Shown: positions 4,401 through 44,375 of the stretch, one piece after another
Layout: each line of letters begins with the position of its first letter
How positions within the stretch are numbered: the stretch's first letter is position 1
Translations under genes and position numbers: made by a program
From: Eledone cirrhosa
Taxonomy: Eukaryota
DNA: 64,000 nucleotides
Assembly (NCBI GenBank): GCA_964016885.1
Contig: OZ024740.1
Span: 120,156,001-120,220,000, forward strand
Reading direction: 5' to 3'
Notes under the pieces: model-generated
What the model saw: only the letters and a program-made list of their open reading frames with translations
What the model was told of the DNA's origin: nothing
Database searches by the model: none

Positions 4401-4626
4401 ACTTTATGAATAAAAATCATTAATATCATCATTACTATTTAACATTTATTTTCAATGCTTGCATGAGATTAAGTATTATATTTTAAAGCTAGATAGATCA
4501 GCTGATCATATCTAGTCCATATGTCCCATTTTGGGCACAGTCTATACAGGCGAATAATTATTGAATATAAAATAATCAAATAAATTAAACTGTTCCTATA
4601 TGAAATCACAATGTAATTTACATAAT

Positions 4627-5018
4627 TGTTTCTACTTTTTAGCACAAGGCCAGCAATTACCCAGTGCATTACTGGTACTTTATTCTATCGACCTCGTAAG
4701 GATGAAAGGCAAAGTTAACCTCGGCGGGATTTGAACTCAGAATGGCAAGGGCCATAACTCTATGCATCAAAGCATGGCATCCGACCCTCTACCGATACTG
4801 CCAATCCAATGCACAACAATGTAATCTACATAATTGTTTCTACTTTTGGCACAAGGCCATCAATTATCCCAGTGCATTACTGGTACTTTATTTTATCGAC
4901 CTCGTAAGGATGAAAGGCAAAGTCAACCTCGGCGGGATTTGAACTCAGATCGTAAAGGGACGTAACTATGCTGGAAAGCATGGTGTCTGACCCTCTACCG
5001 ATACTGCCAATCCACCGC
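4627..5018 (-). mobile_element. Two tandem copies of a ~190-bp tRNA-derived SINE (family 1)
   Basis: Minus strand head ggattggcagtatcggtagag..gagttcaaatccc and central gccgaggtt(a/g)actttgcctttcatccttacgaggtcgataaaataaagtaccag; copies separated by a duplicate of the flank (acaatgtaat.tacataatt). Confidence 0.9.
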
Positions 5019-5104
5019 AATGTTGTGTAATATGATTATTATGTAACTACACATCTCTTCTATTGATATTGTGCATTTTCATAACTTCTCGTATATATTC
5101 ATAT

Positions 5105-20100: not shown

Positions 20101-21444
20101 AATTGAGCCTAATGACATTTCAATAGACTATGTGGACAAATGACTTTAAAGTCCCAAATGTATCCTACCATTTCTGCCATGTCTATTTACCTGTCATACT
20201 ATTAATATTGGTAACACTAACAATTACAATAACATAATTTTTTTTTTAATTAATCCTAAATCCTGAGAATGGGTGGGAGGTAAATGAAACTTTACGACAT
20301 TTTCCTACTCCTATGTCTCTTTATTACAACTGTAACTACTAACAGTAATAGTACAACAAAAACAGCAATACCATCAACAATAATGAATATATTATTTGTA
20401 GACAAAAGTTGTAACTATGAGCATATATGTGCATGTGTGTGTACAATATTTGGTGGTTTATTAGATGCTCCAATCTATTAGATGCATCCCAGATTCTAAA
20501 GTGACAAATGGAAAAAACTAATCAAGTGCTTAATATCAGGTAATATTTTACTCCAATGGAACCTAGCTTATTTTAGCTTGGAATCCAGATTAAACATGCT
20601 AAATTCATTACAAACCAAGATAGTTTACTTAACTTAAATCAAATACTCAAATAAATATCAAATAAACTAAATGTTGGATATAGAAATAAAGTTAAATTTG
20701 ATATATGGGTAGGAAAAACATAATAGGTATAGTGCTCACCTGCTGAACACCTTTATTGTAACTTGAAATTGTCACTTCAAATGTATAAATCCCGTTACTG
20801 GTATTCAATTTATAGGGTACAGTTTTTTAAAGACATTTTCTAGGAAATAAATGCATCTAATAAGATGTGGAATATTATGTATGCATGTGTGTATGTATGA
20901 ACATATGTACATAATGTATGTATATGCTAATTATCTTTAGTAGGACATTTCTGAAGATGTCATCCAAAAGTGTGGGTTATGGTGGAGTCTTGAAAATTAA
21001 TTGATTCCATTAGCAAGCGAACTAATGATTTACATACACTTTAGCATTTCAAAATATGGAAATATATTTTCATTAGTTCATCATTTATTTACATGAAAGA
21101 AAAGAAAATTCTTATATTACCATTTAAATGTGATTCATCAAAATATTGTTTGGAGTGTAAGTTCAACCCTTTCATTACGAATGAATGCATACACATACTT
21201 GCATACAAGGAATTAGTTCATCTTCTTTCGATATTTTTGATGCATAATCCATGATTGACAAACAGGTTGACGCAATCCTTATTTGGTGTTATGATTTAGG
21301 GCTGACTTTTACATGACATACATAGAAAATTCCAAATATTTTGGTAAAAATTAAGGGATTGACTTTTACACTATGTAAAATTCTTTTTGAAATTGCTTTT
21401 GCTTTCACGATTTAAAAAACATCATTGCTTTAGAATTTGAAAAC

Positions 21445-23473
21445 CATGGTCACCCGGATAGTTAACCAAGTCGTACAGAATGGGGTTGTTCCGAAGGACT
21501 GGCGTAGCAGCATCAGCGTTAACTGCTATAAGGGAAAAGGAGATGCCCTAGATAGGAGTAACTATAGAGGCATTAAATTAATCGACCAGGTCATGAAGGT
21601 CACGGAAAAAGTAATAGCGCAACTAATCAGAGAGAGAATTGATCTAGATGAAATGCAGTTCGGGTTTGTGTCAGGCAAAAGTACCACAGACGCTCTTTTC
21701 ATTGTACGACAACTACAGGAGAAGTACCTAGCTAAAAGTAAACCCCTATACTTAGCTTTTGTCGACTTGGAGAAAGCCTTCGACAGAGTCCCCCGTTCCA
21801 TTATCTGGTGGGCTCTTAGAAAACTAGGTGTTGACGAATGGCTTGTGAGAGCTATACAAGCCATGTATAAAGAAACAGTCAGTAAGGTTAGAATTAACAA
21901 CGAATATAGTGAAGAGTTTAGCGTAAAAGTTGGTGTCCATCAGGGCTCTGTTCTTAGCCCCTACTATTTATTATTGCCCTTCAGGCTATAACAGAGGAGT
22001 TCAAGACCGGCTGCGCATGGGAACACCTATACGCAGACGATCTAACGCTCATAGCTGAATCAATGACCGAACTAGAGAAGAAATTCCAAACATGGAAGCA
22101 CGGCCTAGAATCAAAAGGCCTTAAAGTTAACTTGTCTAAGACTAAAGTTCTAGTTTGTAGGAAGGAAAATAGGGCACCGGTCCCATCCGGGAAATGGCCA
22201 TGCTCAGTGTGTAGGAAAGGCGTAGGTAGAAACTCCATTTTATGTCCCCAATGCAAAGTATGGGTGCATAAAAGATGTAGTGGGATCACAGGTAAGCTAA
22301 CTAAGAACATAGATTTTACATGTGGCCGGTGCTCTGGTGCAATAAGTAGCAGCATGTGCCCACCAAATACTAGCTCTTTCAATTGCGCAGAGGGTTCTAT
22401 AGAAATAGTGGACAACTTCCATTACCTGGGTGACAAAATCAGCAGTTGGGGAGGGTGCTCTGAAAGTACAGTAGCTAGAGTCAGAACTGGATGGAAAAAA
22501 GTTCAGAGAGCTTATACCACTATTAGCCGCTAGAGGGTTCTCCCTAAAAATGAAAGGCAGGTTATACGATGCCTGCATACGAACAGCAATGCTGCATGGC
22601 AGTGAGACCTGGGCATTGTGTGCAGAGGATATATGTAGACTAGAGAGGAACGAAGCTTGCATGCTCCGCTGGATGTGCAATAGTAATATACGTGAACGGC
22701 TACGCATAAACGAACTAAGGAAGAAATTAGAAATAAGAGGGATCAGATGTTGTTTACTTGAGAGAAGTCTACGTTGGTACGGTCACGTGATGCGCATGAA
22801 AGACGATAGCTGTATAACAAAGTGCAGTGCAATAAAGATAGACGGTAGCCATGGAGTAGGCAGACCCAGAAAAACCTGGGACGACATGATAAATTCCGAC
22901 CTCACACGCTTACACCTCTCCAAGACAATGTCACTGGACCGAGACCTTTGGCGGTACTCAGTAATAGAGAAGACCCGCCTTACCTAAATACAAAGTAAAA
23001 ACCTACTACAGTCAGTAGGCATCTCTATCAAAACACACCCCCGTCCCACCACCTCCACCCCATCCACACCGCCCCTTTCAATGTAAAGTTATGTTGGTCC
23101 CACAACATCCAGGCCGAAACAAATGAGATCGTGTAGGTGTCACGACAAAAAAAACACACAGTCCACGCTGTAAATGTGGCCGTGTAGGCAACACGGTAAA
23201 AACCTCCCAGCCCCACACTGTAAATGTGGTTGGTGTTAGGAAGGGCATCCAGCTGTAGAAAACCCGCCAGACAGTCCACGCTGTAATGTGGCCGTGTAGG
23301 CAACACGGTAAAAATCTCCCAGCCCCACACTGTCAATGTGGTTGGTGTTAGGAAGGGCATCCAGATGTAGAAAACCCGCCAGACAGTCCTATGCGAGCAA
23401 GACAACCACTCTTGCCTCAATTGGGAAAACCCCCGTCCAAACTCATGCAAGCGTGGAACACGGACGCTAAACC

Positions 23474-26962: not shown

Positions 26963-28552
26963 TTCATCATCATCATCATCACCGTTTTACGTCCGTTCCT
27001 CCACGCTAGCATGGGTTAGACGGGTTGTCCTGTTGTGTGCAGTGTCTGGTCGGCTGACCATGCTTTGCTCATACAGGAACTGATCTGGCTTGATTTCTAC
27101 AGCTGGATGCCCTTCCTAACACCAACCTCATTTACAGTGAGTGCTGGGTGCTTTTTCGTGGCGCCTACACGTCCACTTTACAGTGTGGGCTGGGTGCTTT
27201 TTTGCCGTGGCACCTCCACGACCACCTTGCGGTGGGGGGAGTGGGGGCATATTGTTTATATGCTTCAGCATGTACCCATGGGAGGTCGGGTACTCTGTAT
27301 TACTGCGTGACGCCAGAAGTCACGGTCGTGTGTCATTGTCTTTGAGAGGTGTAAGTGGGTAAGGTCGGCTTTTATCACCTCATCCCAGGTCATCTTGGGT
27401 CTCCCCACTCCGCGGTTTCCATCAACTTCTAGTGCTCTGCACCTTTTTATGCAGCTGTCATCCTTCATACGCATCACATGTCCATACCAGCGCAACCGCC
27501 TCTCCTGCACACAGCATTTGATTCCTCTTATGCTCAGTCTCTCTCTCAATTCATTTATGCTTTGTCGTTCACGTATATTACTGTTACACATCCATTGGAG
27601 CATGCAGGCTTCGTTTCTCTCTAATCTACGTAAGTCTTCCACCTTCAGCGCCCAGGTCTCACTACCATGCAACATCGCTGTTCGGATACATGCATCATAT
27701 AGTCTGCCTTTCATTTTGAGGGAGAAGCCTTTTGCAGCTAGCTGTGGTAGTAGTTCCCTAAACTTCTTCCATCCCATTCTTACCCTAGTTATTGTACTTT
27801 CTGAACACCCACCTCCGTTGCTAATTCGGTCACCTAGGTAGCAGAAGCTGTCTACTGTTTCTACAGGGCCCTCCCAGAGATTGGTGGTACTTGTTTCCTG
27901 TGGCTGTTTGCTGCTTGCTGTTTCAGCACAGCTGCTGCATGTGAATCCTACATTCTTAATTAAGCTTCCTGAGATCCCGCTACATCTCTTGTGTACCCAT
28001 TGTTTGCATTTGGAGCAGAGAATGGAGTTCCTACCTACACCTTTCCTACATATTGAGCAAGGCCATTTCCCTGAGGGGATCTGGGTTCTGTTTTCTCGTC
28101 TACTTACAAGGACCTTAGTCTTTGTCATGTTGACTTTGAGACCCTTTCTCTCTAGTCCCTGCTTCCAGGTTTGGAATTTATTCACTAGTTCTATCATAGA
28201 TTCAGCTATGAGTGCGAGGTCATCAGCATACAGGGGTTCCCATGGGCATCCGGTCTTAAATTCCTCCGTTATTGCCTGCAGGACTATGATGAACAGGAGA
28301 GGGCTAAGAACAGAGCCCTGGTGGACCCCAACCTGTACGCTAAATTCCTCGCTATACTCATTGCTAATCCTAACTTTGCTGACTGCTCCCCTATACATGG
28401 CTTGTACCGCTTTCACAAGCCATTCATCTACTCCTAGTTTTCTAAGAGCCCACCAGATTACAGCACGTGGAACTCTGTCAAAGGCTTTCTCAAGGTCGAC
28501 AAATGCCAAGTAGAGTGGCTTACTTTTAGCTAGGTACTTTTCCTGTAATTGC
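26963..28552 (-). mobile_element. Young 5'-truncated RTE-clade LINE with an uninterrupted 414-codon RT/PHD-like/C-terminal frame
   Basis: ORF 27265-28509: FVDLEKAFDRV, GVHQGSVLSPLLF, LYADDL, CSIC..CSKC..H..C..CSSC, RRLRWYGHVMRM; 3' UTR and (GAT)n tail at ~26963. Confidence 0.95.
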
Positions 28553-29894
28553 CCTGATGAATTGGCTGAGAACTGGCTGTTTTTAAAATGTCAAATAGAA
28601 TGCTTCAAGGGTATTTGTTTCAGCTCCCTATGTTCTACGTTCAAATCTTGCCTTGGTCAACTATGTATTTTATTCATTTGAGGTCAATAAATAAAGTTCA
28701 TGTCCAAAATCAGGGCTAAAACTTTTCCCCTGTCCCTCTCATTTTCTCTCTCTTTCTTTCTGACTTACTGGAAGAAATCAGCTATATTCAGACCTTGAGA
28801 TTAATAAACTCTGCTCACTTTGAAATGGCCATGCTTTAATATTAGGACAACCCCTCTACAACTACATGAGAAACTCAGTTGGCATGGAAGATGTTAACAG
28901 CCTAATAATTTATGGTTAAGTATGGAAAATATGTCTAATTTGAAATGATATGATTCATTGTTTATAGTAGGATTAGGACTGTATGAAATTACTAAGATTC
29001 CAGATTATTCACTAAATAGCCTCAAACTTTGGACACTAAAAATAATATAAGAATACAAATATGAATGTAAACATTGTTTATGCTTCCTTCATATGGTGAA
29101 TCAGTACAATATTTTAAAAAGAAAAACGAACAAACAAGTCTTTATTGTTGACCATCATTTCTTTCAGCTATAGAACAATGTTTTAGACAAAATTCTTCAA
29201 TGAGAGACAAAATACTCAGTTGCAACACTAGAGATTATTCCTATTACTATTCCCATTATAATTTATTATTATTATTTTCATTTCATTTTTATCATTATTA
29301 TCATCATTATTGTTTTTTATTATTCTTACTATATCATCAGCATCACACCACCATCATCATCATCATCTTAGGTAATTGTGCTAAATTCTGAGCCATTTTA
29401 AACCATTATTATTAGATTAGTGACAATGATTCAAAACAAAGAAAATAAGAAAATGTCTATGTCCTGTGCATGTCCATGTGTACATATGTATCCATCTTAT
29501 TTATCAATCATAACAATAGTTGTTTATCATTAATAAGTAATACACCATAACTAATGATGTTTACCAGAGAAAATACTTGAAATACATACATTTTTCTCTA
29601 TTTCTCTATTCATTTCTCTTTATTGTTAGTCTATCCTCATATTGTCTTTGCATTTTTAAATTTTGGGGGAAGATATATGATGAATCATGAGAAGTTTTTT
29701 CTGTGCATACAAATCATATAAAAACTGTATTTTATCATTATACGTTGAAGGTTAAAAATTATTGAAAAATGGGTACTATATTATAATAAGTATTTTATGG
29801 AAATGTTCTGCGCGTGAGTACGTTTGTGTGATTTTATTTGTGAAACTGAGCACATTTGTGTGAGTGTGTGTATTTGTGTGTTTAAACCATCATT

Positions 29895-35820: not shown

Positions 35821-36494
35821 CGTTTCTGAATTTGTTTAGCAAGATTCTTTATCTGAAAACGTGTGTTGAAACCAATATTGTTATACTTTGGGAGGGTCAT
35901 GTTGCCAATAGGAAACACACGCACCAGTTGCTTTCACTCCAATTTATTATAAATTAAATTTATAAATTTAAGAAATTTGTAAATTTCCAGTTGGTTGGTT
36001 CCACAGAAAAGATGCAATGTTTAGACAAATCACAGAGGCAATAAACATAAATTAACTCCAACCAAAATTAAATAGAAAACTTGAATGAAATAGTAACATC
36101 GCAACTTACAATTAAGGACAAAATGAAAACACACACACATAGAACAAACAACCAACCAGTAACATGTAAATGAACAAATAAATAAACAAATAAAAACACA
36201 CACAGACCCCTAGATGTAACACATGCGCAACATAAGCACACAACACACACGAAAACAAGATGGCGTAGGACAGAACAAAGGAGAGGCACAAAACAAAGAA
36301 AAGAATCCCCAGTCACTGAAGAGATCACAGAATGTGTGACGAAAGGACTTTGACAATATATGAACAACCGTCCGGTTGTGGATCCAACCAACCAGAAATT
36401 TACAAATTTCTTAAATTTATAATAAATTGGAGTGAAAACAATTAGTGCGCGTGTTTCTTATTGACAACATGACCCTCCCAAAGTATAACAATAT
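35821..36494 (+). mobile_element. Fold-back element A (Penelope pLTR/retrozyme-like) with an internal hammerhead
   Basis: Inverted arms 35875-36005 / 36377-36494, TA runs on both sides, hammerhead core in the spacer oriented toward the right arm. Confidence 0.75.
36312..36354 (+). ncRNA. Minimal type-I hammerhead ribozyme motif
   Basis: GUCA CUGAAGA G AUCACA gaaug UGUGAC GAAA G ga C UU UGAC: stem I GUCA/UGAC, intact CUGANGA and GAAA, stem II UCACA/UGUGA, 2-bp stem III, CUU cleavage triplet. Confidence 0.75.
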
Positions 36495-36596
36495 ATATAT
36501 ATAAATATACAGATACATACATACATACACACGCACACACACATATACATGCATGGATAATCATACACACGTATAAAAACACACACACATATATGC

Positions 36597-36628
<32 letters not shown>

Positions 36629-36786
36629 GGGGAGGGTCATATTTGTGTAATATTGCCAGAATTAATAACAGAACACACTCACTGTTTGGTTGGTTTTTCG
36701 CTTTTCGCTTCTGTGTCCTTTATATCGGTAATATAATTTATTCGGTCCTCAATGTTGCCATTGACTGACCAATGGTCAAATATAAT

Positions 36787-36963
36787 TGTTTCTACTTTTG
36801 GCACAAGGCCATCAATTATCTGGTTACTGGTACTTTATTTTATCGACCTCGTAAGGATGAAAGGCAAAGTCAACCTCGGCGGGATTTGAACTCAGATCGT
36901 AAAGGGACGTAACTATGCTAGAAAGCATGGTGTCTGACCCTCTACCGATACTGCCAATCCACC
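36787..36963 (-). mobile_element. SINE family 1 with a 20-bp target-site duplication
   Basis: gaccaatggtcaaatataat at 36767-36786 and 36964-36983. Confidence 0.95.
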
Positions 36964-37021
36964 GACCAATGGTCAAATATAATACAGATACAATATAGAC
37001 ACAAACACATATATATAGTTT

Positions 37022-37063
37022 ATCAAAGTTCTTTCGTTGCACATCTGCAACATCGTCAGTGGT
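37022..37063 (-). ncRNA. Minimal type-I hammerhead ribozyme motif
   Basis: Minus strand ACCA CUGACGA U GUUGCA gaug UGCAAC GAAA G aa C UU UGAU: perfect 6-bp stem II, intact core, stem I with one mismatch. Confidence 0.72.
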
Positions 37064-38069
37064 GCTATTGTTTCCTCCCGTTGCATTGTATTTTCTACGC
37101 CATCTTTATTTAGTCTGTTTACATATTTATTTATTTGTTTATTTTATTTTGTCTTCTTTGCGCATGCGTTTGCGTGTGTGTATAGTGTTTTGTTTGATGT
37201 GTGTTCGTGATTGGGTGACTGTGTATTGGTTAATGTATTCTATCTTTACTAGTGTGTGTTTATATGTGTTTGTTGTTATTGTGCTTGTGTATGTATTTAT
37301 TTATTTATTTATTTATACTTCTCTTAGGTCAGTGTTATTTGTTTAGGTGTTGTTATTCCATTCATTCTTTCTGTTTAGCCTTGGCCTTCTAAGTTCTATT
37401 TCACTGGCCTCTCTGATTTGCCTATCTACTGGGTCATTTCTATGTTTAGATATTAATCTAATTTCTATGTTGTCTATGTTACCGTCGTGTTGTTGTCATT
37501 GAGGACCGAATAAATTAGATTACCGATATAAAGGAGACAGAAGCGATAAGCGAAAACCAACCAAACAGTGAGTGTGTTCTGTTATTAATTCTGGCAATAT
37601 TACACAAATATGACACTCCCCAAGTATAACAATATTTGTTTCGACACACGATTTCATATCAAAAACCTCGCAAAACTAATATATATATATATATATATAC
37701 TAAAATATAAAATAAACATACGTACACATACACATGCGTGCAAAATTACATATACACATACACAACCACACGCATACACACATATAAATAAACATGCATA
37801 CAGCCATATTACACACACATCCACATATATACACATAAAAGCCTACAATACGGAGGATACGTATACAAATTTGTGCGCTCGCACGCACGTAAAAAGAAAT
37901 CAACACACGCATACAAAAAATCCATACGTAAATCCATACACACATAACCCATATATACAAAAGCATATATATACAGTTGCATACACACACATATATGTAA
38001 ACACATACATATAGCCATATATAAATATAATATAAACATATACAAAATCGCATACACACACATATATGT

Positions 38070-39489: not shown

Positions 39490-41838
39490 TCACAATACTA
39501 TAAATGTATGTACACATAAGCTTGTCTGCATATGCGCCCGCACACAACCCTAAGTGAGTACATTAAACAACCTAGTGGTTAAGAGGAGTAAAACTGAAAT
39601 AAAATGATAAACACAATTATTAAGAAAAGGTAAGGGAAAAAAGTGTTGTAAAAGGTTTGTGATGAGATCTAGATAAGAGTATCTGGTTAAAAAGTGAACT
39701 GAGTAAAGGATAAAGGTGGTGTATGTGTAAAAGGTAAGGTAGAAAGTGTTGGGATTATTAGTCAACTGAAAAAATGATAAAAATAAAAATATAAAAATAA
39801 AGAGATATATAAAAGGAGATGAGGGAGAACAAGTATATAACGGTAGAAAGTATGAGTTCATAAGTTAGTGGTGAGTGGAAGGCATGATGCGTAAAGAAGA
39901 AGCTCAAGGTGGTTGAGTAATCGTAGGAATGTTAATCCAGTTAAAAAGTAGATGCGATTTCAGATGCGGACAACATCTGAAGATCTCGGTCTTAGAGTTG
40001 AGGCAAGGGGAAGGGCCTTTCAAGTTTTGGAGAATTCTAAATTTGTCCGTGGTGCACAAAGAACATTTCTTTGTGCCCCTATGGTATTCTCTTGAATGGT
40101 ATAAAATAGAGCAATCAATAGTGTACGGAATGTTTTTTGTCTTTGAACTCCCACACTTTATTTGCAAGCACCGTTGCTGTTCTTTTTTCAGGGTGTTTGA
40201 AAGAAGCGACATGTGCATAATACCTGGTTTTGAATCTGTCCTGAGTCATGCCAACATATCGTTCACTCCTGGCTGGCTGGTTATTAATGATCGATGTCAA
40301 TTTGGCCTCATATACAATGGATTTGGTATTACATTTACCCTGTAATGGGCATTCTTCTAGCTTCCTGCAACTGCATCCTGGATTTACTCTCGCACGATTA
40401 GAGTTGGTCATTTTAGTCTTCATTGATGGGCAGCAAGAGTAACTGATTTTGACTACATTTCTATTAAATAACTTATTATATCTATGATTAGGGGGAAAAT
40501 ATTTGTCTAGGAGGTCGAGGAATTTTCTTCCTACATTAGTTTTAACAGTTAGAGAGAAGGGGGGTGTAAACCAAATAATTTTTCTTTTCCTGTTATTGTG
40601 TTTAGTGTTAGAGAGAGGAGTAGGTAAATATTTAATATGTTCGGTGAAGCGGCTGTTGTTGAGGGCCTTATTATAGTAAGGGGCGGCTTTGTTAAAAATG
40701 TCTATAGACGGAGATAAGGTAGAAATCCTACGGCTAATGTTAGGAATAAGATTTTTAAAGACTATAGGGGGATGGCAAGACTCTTTGTGTATATATCTTA
40801 AATTCTCGTTAGGTTAATGATAAGGTTTAAAAGAGGCAGTAAGTAGATCAATATTAATATCAAGAAAGTTAGTATTAGTAAGATTCGTATCTATAGTAAT
40901 TTTAAGGTTTAGGTTAGCAAAGGTATTAATTAAATCTTTAAGGAATTTATCAAGGTTATGGCTGTTGGTGGTATGAGAAACTGCCAAACCGTCCTCGGTA
41001 TAAACCGATATTATGGCAAGGAAATTTCTCTTTAAGGTTGTGAAGGAGGAATAATCCTACTAAGTCGCACACATCAACACTATCATATGAGCCCATCGCA
41101 ACATCAAAAGAGATTTCAGGGCTTGATTTTTTAACCCAGATACTTTCATTAGCAAAGAGTAGTGTTTTCCTAGCATGAAAGATAACGTCTTCTTCTAATT
41201 TAGAACTATTAATGAAAGGTTTTACAAAATCTAAGGCTTTTGTTAATAAGGATTCAGTGATAGAGGGGTAAAAATCAACAATATCAAATTGGATAAATCT
41301 ACACTTATTTTTTCTTTGTATATTATTAAACCAAGAAATAACAGAGGATGTATTTAACCAGTGTGATAAGTCAGTCATAGTTCTTATTTGAAGTATTATT
41401 TTTCTTAAGATTTTTTTACTTGCATGGCCAACTTCAGATTTAGCAGGGTTAATTAGTCTACAGCTAGGTCGATTAGTAAAATCTGATTTATGGTCTTTAA
41501 GGGTAATATATGATTTACGTTTAGCCAGGCTTTTAATTCGGTATCTATTTTTTAAATACTAGCTAGGTCTTTAGCTTCATTATTAATGGTATTGTATGTT
41601 AGCTATTTGATATTTGGCGGTAACGCTATCTGTTTGTTAAAAGTTAGTTATACAAAATATTATTTACTTCAAAAAGATTTTTAATTTTATCAGAAAAAAC
41701 GAAAGTGTTTGTAGAATGTTTAAAATTAGAAATATCGTTAGAGAGTTTTGATTGAAAATTATTGTTGTACTTACGGTATTTAATTTCACTAATTAAGTTA
41801 ACTAGGTCTATTTCGAAGTTAGCCATGTCTTTAACTTG
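39490..41838 (-). mobile_element. Disrupted, 5'-truncated Penelope-like retroelement (RT + C-terminal GIY-YIG endonuclease)
   Basis: RT: FIQFDIVDFYPSI, FDVAMGSYDSVDVCDLVGLF, GLYR; linker RKIIWFTPPFS..KTNVGRKFL; endonuclease CSCRKLEECPLQGKC..SIVYEA..YVGMT..RFKTRYYAH..CSLC..LN..CPH; frameshifts and stops. Confidence 0.9.
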
Positions 41839-43759: not shown

Positions 43760-44375
43760 GTACAGAAATAAATAATTGTTTCTACTCTTGGCACAAGGCC
43801 AGCAATTACCCATTTCATTACTGGTACTGGTACTTACCATGTAAGGATGAAAGGCAAAGTTAACCTCGGCAGGGTTTGAACTCAGAAAGGCAAGGGCCGT
43901 AACTCTATGCGTCAAAGCATGACGTCCGACCCTCTACCGATACTGCCAAATCACCGCCCTTGTACAGAAATAAATAATTATATCTACTTTTGGCACAAGG
44001 CCAGTAATTACCCAGTGCATTACTGGTACTTTATTTTATCGACCCCGTAAGGATGAAAGGCAAAGTCAACCTCGGCGGGATTTGAACTCAGATTGTAAAG
44101 GGACGTAACTATGCTGGAAAGCATGTCCGACCCTCTACTGATACTGCCAATCCACTGTACAGAAATAAATAATTGTTTCTACTTTAGGCACAAGGCCAGC
44201 AATTGCCCAGTGCATTACTGGTACTTTATTTTATTGACCCCGTAGGATGAAAGGCAAAGTCAACCTCGGCGGGATTTGAACTCAGATCGTAAAGGGACGT
44301 AACTATGCTGGAAAGCATGGCGTCTGACCCTCTACTGATACTGCCAATCCACCGCCCTTCAGAAATAAATAATGA
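43760..44375 (-). mobile_element. Array of three SINE family 1 copies separated by the same target sequence
   Basis: (tgta)cagaaataaataat occurs at ~43760, 43961, 44156 and 44360, bracketing three ~185-bp SINEs. Confidence 0.9.

What the first reader, a model, noticed from the sequence alone, without database searches (positions are those of the whole stretch)
35821..37680. Two adjacent hammerhead-bearing fold-back elements with identical architecture but dissimilar sequence
Seen: elements A (35821-36494) and B (36628-37680) each sit in (TA)n, have ~120-130-bp inverted arms, and carry one hammerhead in the spacer pointing toward the shorter arm, while the other arm has a longer tail. Arms and spacers do not align by eye. 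The hammerheads nevertheless share CUGANGA, an apparent extra nucleotide before stem II, GAAAG(G/A)ACUUUGA, and a stem II with different sequence but kept pairing (UCACA/UGUGA vs GUUGCA/UGCAAC). Established: Penelope-like elements carry minimal hammerheads in their pseudo-LTRs, often leave inverted 5'-truncated copies and favour AT-rich targets; retrozymes are non-autonomous hammerhead elements. Inference: these are remnants of ribozyme-processed, TA-targeting retroelement families that may be uncatalogued in this lineage.
Basis: partly seen in the sequence, partly recalled or inferred. Interest (0 to 1): 0.75.

Follow-up and report, generated by a model that had tools for sequence, protein, structure and literature searches.

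The report
Fold-back stubs of unusual Penelope retrotransposons
The two hairpin-shaped elements are ordinary truncated copies of two sister jumping-gene families of the Penelope type, likely dead where they sit, but their parent families carry a copying enzyme with an unusually long extra segment and may belong to a widespread branch that we did not find named.

Summary
Both elements are real and are 5'-truncated insertions of two sister Penelope-like retrotransposon (PLE) families. Each holds the end of a GIY-YIG endonuclease frame, a 3' UTR with a minimal hammerhead and the first codons of the ORF, plus a head-to-head inverted second copy. The arms of A and B do align (83% over 71 nt, coding). 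Fold-backs, tails, (TA)n targets and the extra hammerhead nucleotide are published PLE features. Two things go further. (1) Copies end at +26 or about +70/+81 of the ORF, and in an end-anchored sample all 25 resolved fold-backs (24 insertions) paired one short with one long end; likely the two target strands prime from two fixed RNA start sites. (2) The parent RT has about 135 aa between motifs A and B' (66 in Neptune-like elements of this genome), a DKS motif and a C-terminal endonuclease, conserved in over 100 homologs. It groups apart from Poseidon-, Neptune- and Hydra-like references; Nematis could not be put in the tree. A sister subfamily has intact 1,210-aa frames. Cleavage is untested.

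The parts
35821..36005 (-). Element A, inverted 5'-truncated copy: pLTR end, ATG at 35900-35898, long tail to about +81 of the ORF
   Evidence: (tblastn of the intact ORF, residues 1-27)
36002..36115 (+). Element A, last codons of the GIY-YIG endonuclease frame (two in-frame stops in this copy)
   Evidence: family copies read ...FRQITEAININELQPKLNRKHEWNSNITTYN; Pfam GIY-YIG E 1e-4 on a family copy
36116..36468 (+). Element A, 3' UTR / pseudo-LTR
   Evidence: tandem units of 3.9-4.0 kb in L062, L063
36312..36354 (+). Minimal type I hammerhead motif of A: 4-bp stem I, extra G, stem II with G10.1 changed to A in this copy, helix III AGGACU, predicted cut after 36350
   Evidence: activity untested
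36469..36494 (+). Element A, ORF start and short end at +26, joined to (TA)n
36628..36640 (-). Element B, ORF start (ATG 36640-36638), short end cut back to about +12, joined to (TA)n
36641..37312 (-). Element B, 3' UTR / pseudo-LTR, interrupted by a SINE-like insert
   Evidence: tandem unit of 4.07 kb in L061
36764..36983 (-). Later SINE-like insertion (36787-36960) between 23-nt direct repeats; A-box-like and B-box-like motifs read by eye
   Evidence: D18; 13 further matches in the window
37023..37061 (-). Minimal type I hammerhead motif of B: 2-bp stem I next to the core, extra U, 6-bp stem II, helix III AGAACU, predicted cut after 37026
   Evidence: activity untested
37313..37495 (-). Element B, last codons of the GIY-YIG endonuclease frame (broken)
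   Evidence: (tblastn 87.5% to residues 1150-1189 of the intact ORF)
37497..37680 (+). Element B, inverted 5'-truncated copy: pLTR end, ATG at 37610, long tail to about +71, joined to (TA)n

Best explanation
A and B are two separate, 5'-truncated, head-to-head insertions of sister Penelope-like retrotransposon families (RT plus C-terminal GIY-YIG endonuclease), likely made when the endonuclease nicked both strands of a (TA)n tract and each nick primed reverse transcription from one of two fixed start sites in the first codons of the ORF. Shown here: family membership, coding remnants, two discrete 3' ends (+26 and about +70/+81), (TA)n junctions, and the pairing of one short with one long end in fold-backs. 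Inferred, by analogy with the anole Poseidon element: two-strand nicking, internal priming, early termination of both cDNAs and joining of their truncated ends. The hammerhead is the family's pLTR ribozyme, predicted to work only as a dimer because helix III is a short palindrome. In these stubs it is likely inactive: there is one motif per element, A and B lie on opposite strands, and A has lost the G10.1-C11.1 pair. The parent lineage differs from the published C-terminal-endonuclease clades by about 70 extra residues in the RT fingers; what they do is unknown, and I infer a role in holding RNA or primer from their position only.
For: Copies run upstream into RT and GIY-YIG frames; tandem units of 3.9-4.1 kb. 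16 of 94 scored matches of a B-family RT have a 1,217-codon open frame; 8 such frames starting MTLP were read. The fold model (pLDDT 93) matches telomerase RT best: the top 14 rows, Z up to 14.3, rmsd 3.8, 369 aligned. Ends: 43 of 70 A ends at +26/27 and 27 of 70 at the long site; 65 of 70 A ends and 62 of 65 B-type ends run into (TA)n. Exact end-plus-TA patterns occur 12,162 and 2,334 times, controls 0. In 60 end-anchored loci, 13 of 13 resolved partners of short ends were long and 12 of 12 partners of long ends were short (one insertion counted from both sides). Hammerheads lie on the sense strand behind the endonuclease in 7 of 24 distant relatives (9 of 24 by core only) and on the antisense strand in 0 of 24, with different stems and palindromic helix III. 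PMC11167929 shows two-strand nicking and two internal start sites that define the tail.
Against: No cleavage or insertion assay. 35 of the 60 end-anchored loci had no resolved partner. In the length-biased set, 6 of 34 fold-backs had two ends of the same class. Shared variants between the two arms were only about twice background (12 of 2,015 against 122 of 43,210 sites), so one template versus two is open. 15 of 24 distant relatives showed no hammerhead core. Rfam gave no hammerhead hit. B's stem I is only 2 bp next to the core. PMC3846280 proposes self-priming on an antisense template for the same head-to-head layout.
Confidence: 0.85

Rival explanations
1. Same families, but the inverted arm arises by self-priming or fold-back of a single cDNA (or on an antisense template), not by priming from both nicked strands.
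For: PMC3846280 (Discussion) argues for self-priming from palindromes at inverted junctions. Several fold-backs here have both arms truncated at nearly the same place with 14-26 nt overlaps (L229, L231, L233, L270).
Against: Simple fold-back copying would give both arms the same 3' end, whereas 25 of 25 resolved pairs had ends of opposite class. Either arm can be the longer (12 versus 16).
Confidence: 0.2
2. The fold-backs are non-autonomous retrozyme-like units that spread as such through a hammerhead-cut, circular RNA.
For: Retrozymes are reported as pLTR-derived PLE passengers (bioRxiv 10.64898/2026.07.22.740005, section 14). The families are very abundant.
Against: 5' breakpoints differ from insertion to insertion, and many fold-backs lack the hammerhead. 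Both window copies hold coding remnants and only one motif, not tandem monomers.
Confidence: 0.04
3. They are MITEs (DNA transposons) with terminal inverted repeats, and the hammerhead match is chance.
For: Inverted arms, TA flanks; no Rfam hit and no folding signal.
Against: The arms are unequal, encode the RT ORF start and continue into full RT/GIY-YIG units. The motif recurs, sense strand only, in distant relatives.
Confidence: 0.01
4. On clade only: the parent families are a divergent branch of Nematis, or are already filed in Repbase/Dfam, so the long RT insertion marks a sub-lineage and not a new clade.
For: The RT-endonuclease linker (..IKVVEKPG.., CX4CxxC, short gap to the GIY motif) resembles the three Nematis rows printed in PMC8557442 Fig. 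S2/S7, by eye. I could not search Repbase or Dfam, and did not see Arkhipova 2006.
Against: Printed Nematis RTs have about 67 residues from motif A to B' (my hand count), DKG/DKR and GLAMGxRLAP; this lineage has 131-148 in 113 of 114 rows, DKS in 75 of 78 and GG(A/P)IG...WWD. It also shares KDHK and YPS with Hydra rows.
Confidence: 0.4

Closest known systems
Endonuclease-containing Penelope-like elements with inverted 5'-truncated copy and one-sided tail (PMC8557442 section 6; PMC3846280)
   Same: Single ORF with RT and C-terminal GIY-YIG; pLTR that includes the ORF start; partial tandems; head-to-head inverted copy; tail on one end; (TA)n targets; Asn-rich stretch in the ORF as in rotifer Penelopes.
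   Different: Tail is about 45-55 nt, not 30-40. The Asn-rich stretch lies before the RT. The RT has about 70 extra residues between motifs A and B'.
Minimal PLE hammerheads (Cervera and de la Pena 2014, PMC4209133)
   Same: [quoted passage not shown]
   Different: Helix III is AGAACU with central mismatches in A and B and AGAUUU in the young subfamily; the window copy of A lost G10.1. No activity measured.
Poseidon element of Anolis carolinensis, PAc (PMC11167929)
   Same: Two discrete 3' ends inside the ORF start, AT-rich targets, hammerhead near the ORF start.
   Different: PAc starts at about +111-118 and its hammerhead overlaps the ATG; here ends are +26 and +70/+81 and the core lies about 160 nt before the ATG. 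Only 20% identity to a Poseidon-like protein. The short-plus-long pairing in fold-backs is not in the text I read.
Nematis and Neptune clades (PMC8557442 Fig. S1, S2, S7)
   Same: C-terminal endonuclease with a CX2-5CxxC linker and CCHH-type residues; canonical hammerhead.
   Different: A-to-B' spacing about 135 against 63-67; DKS against DKG; motif B' GG(A/P)IG against G.AMG; no Pfam RVT_1 hit for the whole protein at E 0.1.
Naiad/Chlamys elements and telomerase RT (insertion in fingers)
   Same: Extra segment at the same place in the RT; its length falls in the telomerase range (about 122-156 by my hand count on Fig. S1); telomerase is the best whole-domain fold match.
   Different: Naiad/Chlamys have an N-terminal endonuclease and mostly lack canonical hammerheads. 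The insert here is predicted helical with long loops, and when folded alone it matched nothing above Z 5.0.

Membership tests
Penelope-like elements (EN+) | Single ORF with telomerase-like RT | tested here: met
   1,210-aa ORF; YVDD; best fold match telomerase RT
Penelope-like elements (EN+) | [quoted passage not shown] | tested here: met
   VVYSIRCTEGQC..YIGET..NEH..HQHAKIEH; Pfam GIY-YIG E 1e-4 for family A; no Pfam hit for the B-type domain
Penelope-like elements (EN+) | pLTR, partial tandems, inverted 5'-truncated copy, one-sided tail | tested here: met
Penelope-like elements (EN+) | Hammerhead motif in the pLTR | tested here: met
   core in 55 of 67 A, 40 of 49 B and 9 of 10 young-subfamily copies; distant relatives
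Minimal dimeric hammerhead | Self-cleavage as a dimer | not testable with these tools
   needs in vitro transcription; only the palindromic helix III was checked
Neptune | CX2-5CxxC linker | tested here: met
   96 of 105 endonuclease-bearing homologs have CX2-7CxxC
Neptune | RT groups with Neptune; no fingers insertion; DKG | tested here: not met
   Neptune-like plus Poseidon-like rows form a 99/95 branch without this lineage (labels are mine); spacing 66 against 135
Penelope/Poseidon | No linker zinc finger; RT groups with Poseidon | tested here: not met
Hydra | No CCHH, CxCX5C linker, DKT, under 3 kb | tested here: not met
   CCHH-type residues and CX4CxxC present, DKS, units of 3.9-4.1 kb; separate in the tree
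Naiad/Chlamys | N-terminal endonuclease | tested here: not met
   endonuclease is C-terminal; motif in the last 200 aa of 105 of 131 rows
Nematis | RT groups with Nematis | not tested
   no Nematis sequence could be fetched; only a by-eye comparison with three printed rows
Nematis | No fingers insertion; DKG-type motif | tested here: not met
   131-148 aa and DKS against about 67 aa and DKG/DKR in the printed rows (hand count)
Telomerase IFD/TRAP | Insert has the same fold | tested here: inconclusive
   insert model pLDDT 77; best Z 5.0, telomerase not listed
Non-LTR retrozymes | Non-coding unit-length tandem monomers, each with a hammerhead | tested here: not met
   coding remnants, variable truncation, one motif per element
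MITE | Equal terminal inverted repeats, spread as a fixed unit | tested here: not met

The most novel reading that the evidence does not exclude
The parent families belong to an unnamed, widespread clade of C-terminal-endonuclease Penelope-like elements whose RT carries a conserved, telomerase-length insertion in the fingers with a fold of its own. The clade is still young and intact in this genome, and it builds fold-back insertions by a strict rule of one short-start and one long-start cDNA. That would give a mobile counterpart of the telomerase fingers insertion and a genome-scale test of how PLE inversions form.
Probability: 0.5. Interest if true: 0.68.

Novelty: new variant of a known kind. 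Interest (0 to 1): 0.45.

Why it matters
The locus itself is an ordinary pair of dead stubs. Two side results matter. First, published work ties the fingers insertion to telomerases and to N-terminal-endonuclease PLEs; a large C-terminal-endonuclease lineage with an equally long, conserved insertion would revise PLE classification and bears on how telomerase RT features arose. It also escapes the Pfam RT model scanned here, so annotation can miss it. Second, the one-short-plus-one-long rule, with thousands of ends to count and intact young copies, makes the open question of how PLE inverted insertions form directly testable.

Tried and rejected
Rfam scan: no hammerhead family listed up to E 10. 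Single-strand folding of the motifs: not better than shuffles. PDB sequence search: only two weak RT hits, E about 0.09. Fold search of the insert alone: nothing above Z 5.0, telomerase not listed; this is no evidence that the folds differ. Homodimer prediction of the first 250 residues: verdict 'no answer', neither for nor against. Expression: no RNA holder listed; only contigs could be laid, which show neither ends nor strand. Nematis and Naiad references: pattern searches found none in this genome and only two unrelated phage-like loci among viral contigs, so neither is in the tree. The first fold-back count used a wrong family-A reference and was discarded; one search replaces it. One-template test from shared variants: inconclusive. 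Paper searches, and a search of the PMC8557442 supplement for four peptide words of this lineage (0 hits), found no description of it; the library lacks most subscription journals. A functional A-B pair was rejected: opposite strands, a shared (TA)n target; a B-type end lay in 1 of 60 3-kb loci around A ends, so the 133-bp spacing is uncommon but needs no link.

Full report
Observation. The sequence shows both elements between (TA)n tracts. Inverted arms align over 131 columns in A and 133 in B, and each element holds one hammerhead-like motif, A on + and B on -. The claim that the two are dissimilar is wrong. A's left arm and B's right arm are 83% identical over 71 nt and read MTLPKYNNI...; 8 of 12 differing codons among 23 are synonymous. 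The inner ends of the spacers encode the last residues of a GIY-YIG endonuclease. B is longer because of a 174-bp SINE-like insert between 23-nt direct repeats, with 13 further matches in the window.

What they are. The genome is 3.0 Gb; the closest named homologue is an Octopus vulgaris protein at 69% identity, so an octopus-type host is inferred. DNA searches gave 3,670 and 3,476 candidates, 40 scored each, at 89-96% identity. Copies continue upstream into RT and endonuclease frames, and tandem units measure 3.9-4.1 kb. A young sister subfamily of B has intact frames: 16 of 94 scored matches show 1,217 open codons, and I read 8 that start with MTLP. The order is N-terminal region, Asn-rich stretch, RT, CX4CxxC linker, GIY-YIG. 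Each window element is thus a truncated sense copy plus a head-to-head inverted copy. PMC8557442 (section 6) and PMC3846280 (passages, Discussion) describe this layout and the one-sided tail.

Ends and mechanism. Of 70 family-A ends, 43 fall at +26/27 of the ORF and 27 at the long site (about +81; BLAST runs on to +86 into TA); 65 run into (TA)n, as do 62 of 65 B-type ends. Exact end-plus-TA patterns occur 12,162 and 2,334 times, controls 0; these are lower bounds. In the first 30 loci of each search, 13 short ends had a resolved inverted partner, all long, and 12 long ends had one, all short; one insertion was seen from both sides, and 35 of 60 loci were unresolved or single. In 135 loci chosen by other searches, 28 of 34 fold-backs were short-plus-long after dropping 4 double-counted rows, and the short-ended arm was the longer in 12 of 28. 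So the tail asymmetry is a rule, and which arm keeps the hammerhead is not. PMC11167929 (main text) shows that an anole PLE nicks both strands and starts reverse transcription at two internal sites that define the tail. I infer that each strand primes from a different site. Whether one RNA or two serve as template is open; self-priming (PMC3846280) remains a rival.

Hammerhead. The core is kept in 55 of 67 A, 40 of 49 B and 9 of 10 young-subfamily copies; within a family this mostly reflects descent. Better evidence comes from distant relatives. Of 60 metagenome loci, 35 reached the endonuclease end and 24 had enough sequence behind it; 7 of 24 carry a full motif and 9 of 24 a core on the sense strand, 0 of 24 on the antisense strand (four of the 24 are near-identical). 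Their stems differ and helix III is palindromic (AUCGAU, AUUAAU, AUAUAU, ACGU). PMC4209133 (parts 1-2 of 4) reports the same design, including the extra nucleotide, no monomer activity and low dimer activity. In the window, A has G10.1 changed to A, B has a 2-bp stem I, and the two lie on opposite strands, so cleavage in place is unlikely. Rfam and folding gave no support.

The parent RT. Motif A to B' spans 131-148 residues in 113 of 114 measurable rows of a 131-row alignment, with conserved positions inside the insert; DKS replaces DKG in 75 of 78 rows. Among 144 further profile hits, the 56 that my pattern could parse span 124-166. Neptune-like elements of the same genome measure 66 (15 of 18 frames). 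My hand counts on PMC8557442 Fig. S1/S7 give 63-67 for Penelope, Neptune and Nematis, about 91 for a Naiad, 109-126 for two Chlamys and 122-156 for two telomerases. The full protein and 9 homologues gave no RT hit in Pfam at E 0.1; one fragment scored RVT_1 at E 0.002, below the cut-off. The model (pLDDT 93) matches telomerase RT best; the insert alone matched nothing clear. In a 43-row tree the lineage is one group (90/97) and Poseidon-like plus Neptune-like rows exclude it (99/95). Limits: the labels are mine, from motifs; two rows were dropped by the parser; insert columns were kept; Nematis, Naiad, Chlamys, Athena, Coprina and telomerase are missing. Named hosts are Octopus vulgaris and Holothuria leucospilota; the Atlas tied a homologue to PLE-type clusters.

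Literature. Nine searches and the PMC8557442 supplement (parts 2, 54, 57, 58 and term searches) gave no description of a C-terminal-endonuclease clade with this insert. PMC13282606 (passages) lists 31 recently active Penelope-like families in O. vulgaris, with no clade names in the passages I saw; PMC6962438 (passages) only counts hammerheads in squid; the bioRxiv retrozyme preprint (abstract, section 14) names four PLE groups. Arkhipova 2006, Repbase and Dfam were not seen, so 'unnamed' stays at even odds.

Verdict. The finding as written is a known PLE insertion type. The lineage behind it and the end-pairing rule are the parts worth following. Interest 0.45; new variant of a known kind.

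Noticed in passing
window 39900-41700 (-): Degraded PLE of another type with KDHK, DIVDFYPS, MGSYD and WFTPPFS motifs, like the Hydra rows printed in PMC8557442; the type is abundant in this genome.
   Followed up: partly
window 21434-22984 (+) and 27268-28590 (-): LINE-type RT frames (Pfam RVT_1), the second with a PHD finger.
   Followed up: partly
window 36787-36960 and 13 other places, e.g. 4622-5022, 43772-44357: SINE-like family, with tandem copies at two sites; its 3' half resembles the MetaSINE domain by my recall only.
   Followed up: partly
L103:4920-4977 and other young copies: The young subfamily changed helix III to AGAUUU and the predicted cut triplet to UUA, keeping the palindrome.
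   Followed up: yes
P0050 residues about 245-410; L062, L069: Long Asn-rich in-frame stretch before the RT, recalling the N-rich inserts of rotifer Penelopes (PMC3846280), but at a different place.
   Followed up: no
G000, (L201-L225): Several Neptune-like families with long open frames; 2,600 exact motif matches.
   Followed up: partly
window 56050 (-) and 56222 (+): Near-identical inverted pair of stretches beginning CTGATGAGGACGTAC, found by the loose hammerhead scan; possibly another fold-back repeat.
   Followed up: no
L067 5481-5595; L101 1229-1649: Very short fold-backs made of little more than the two ORF-start ends, next to longer copies.
   Followed up: no
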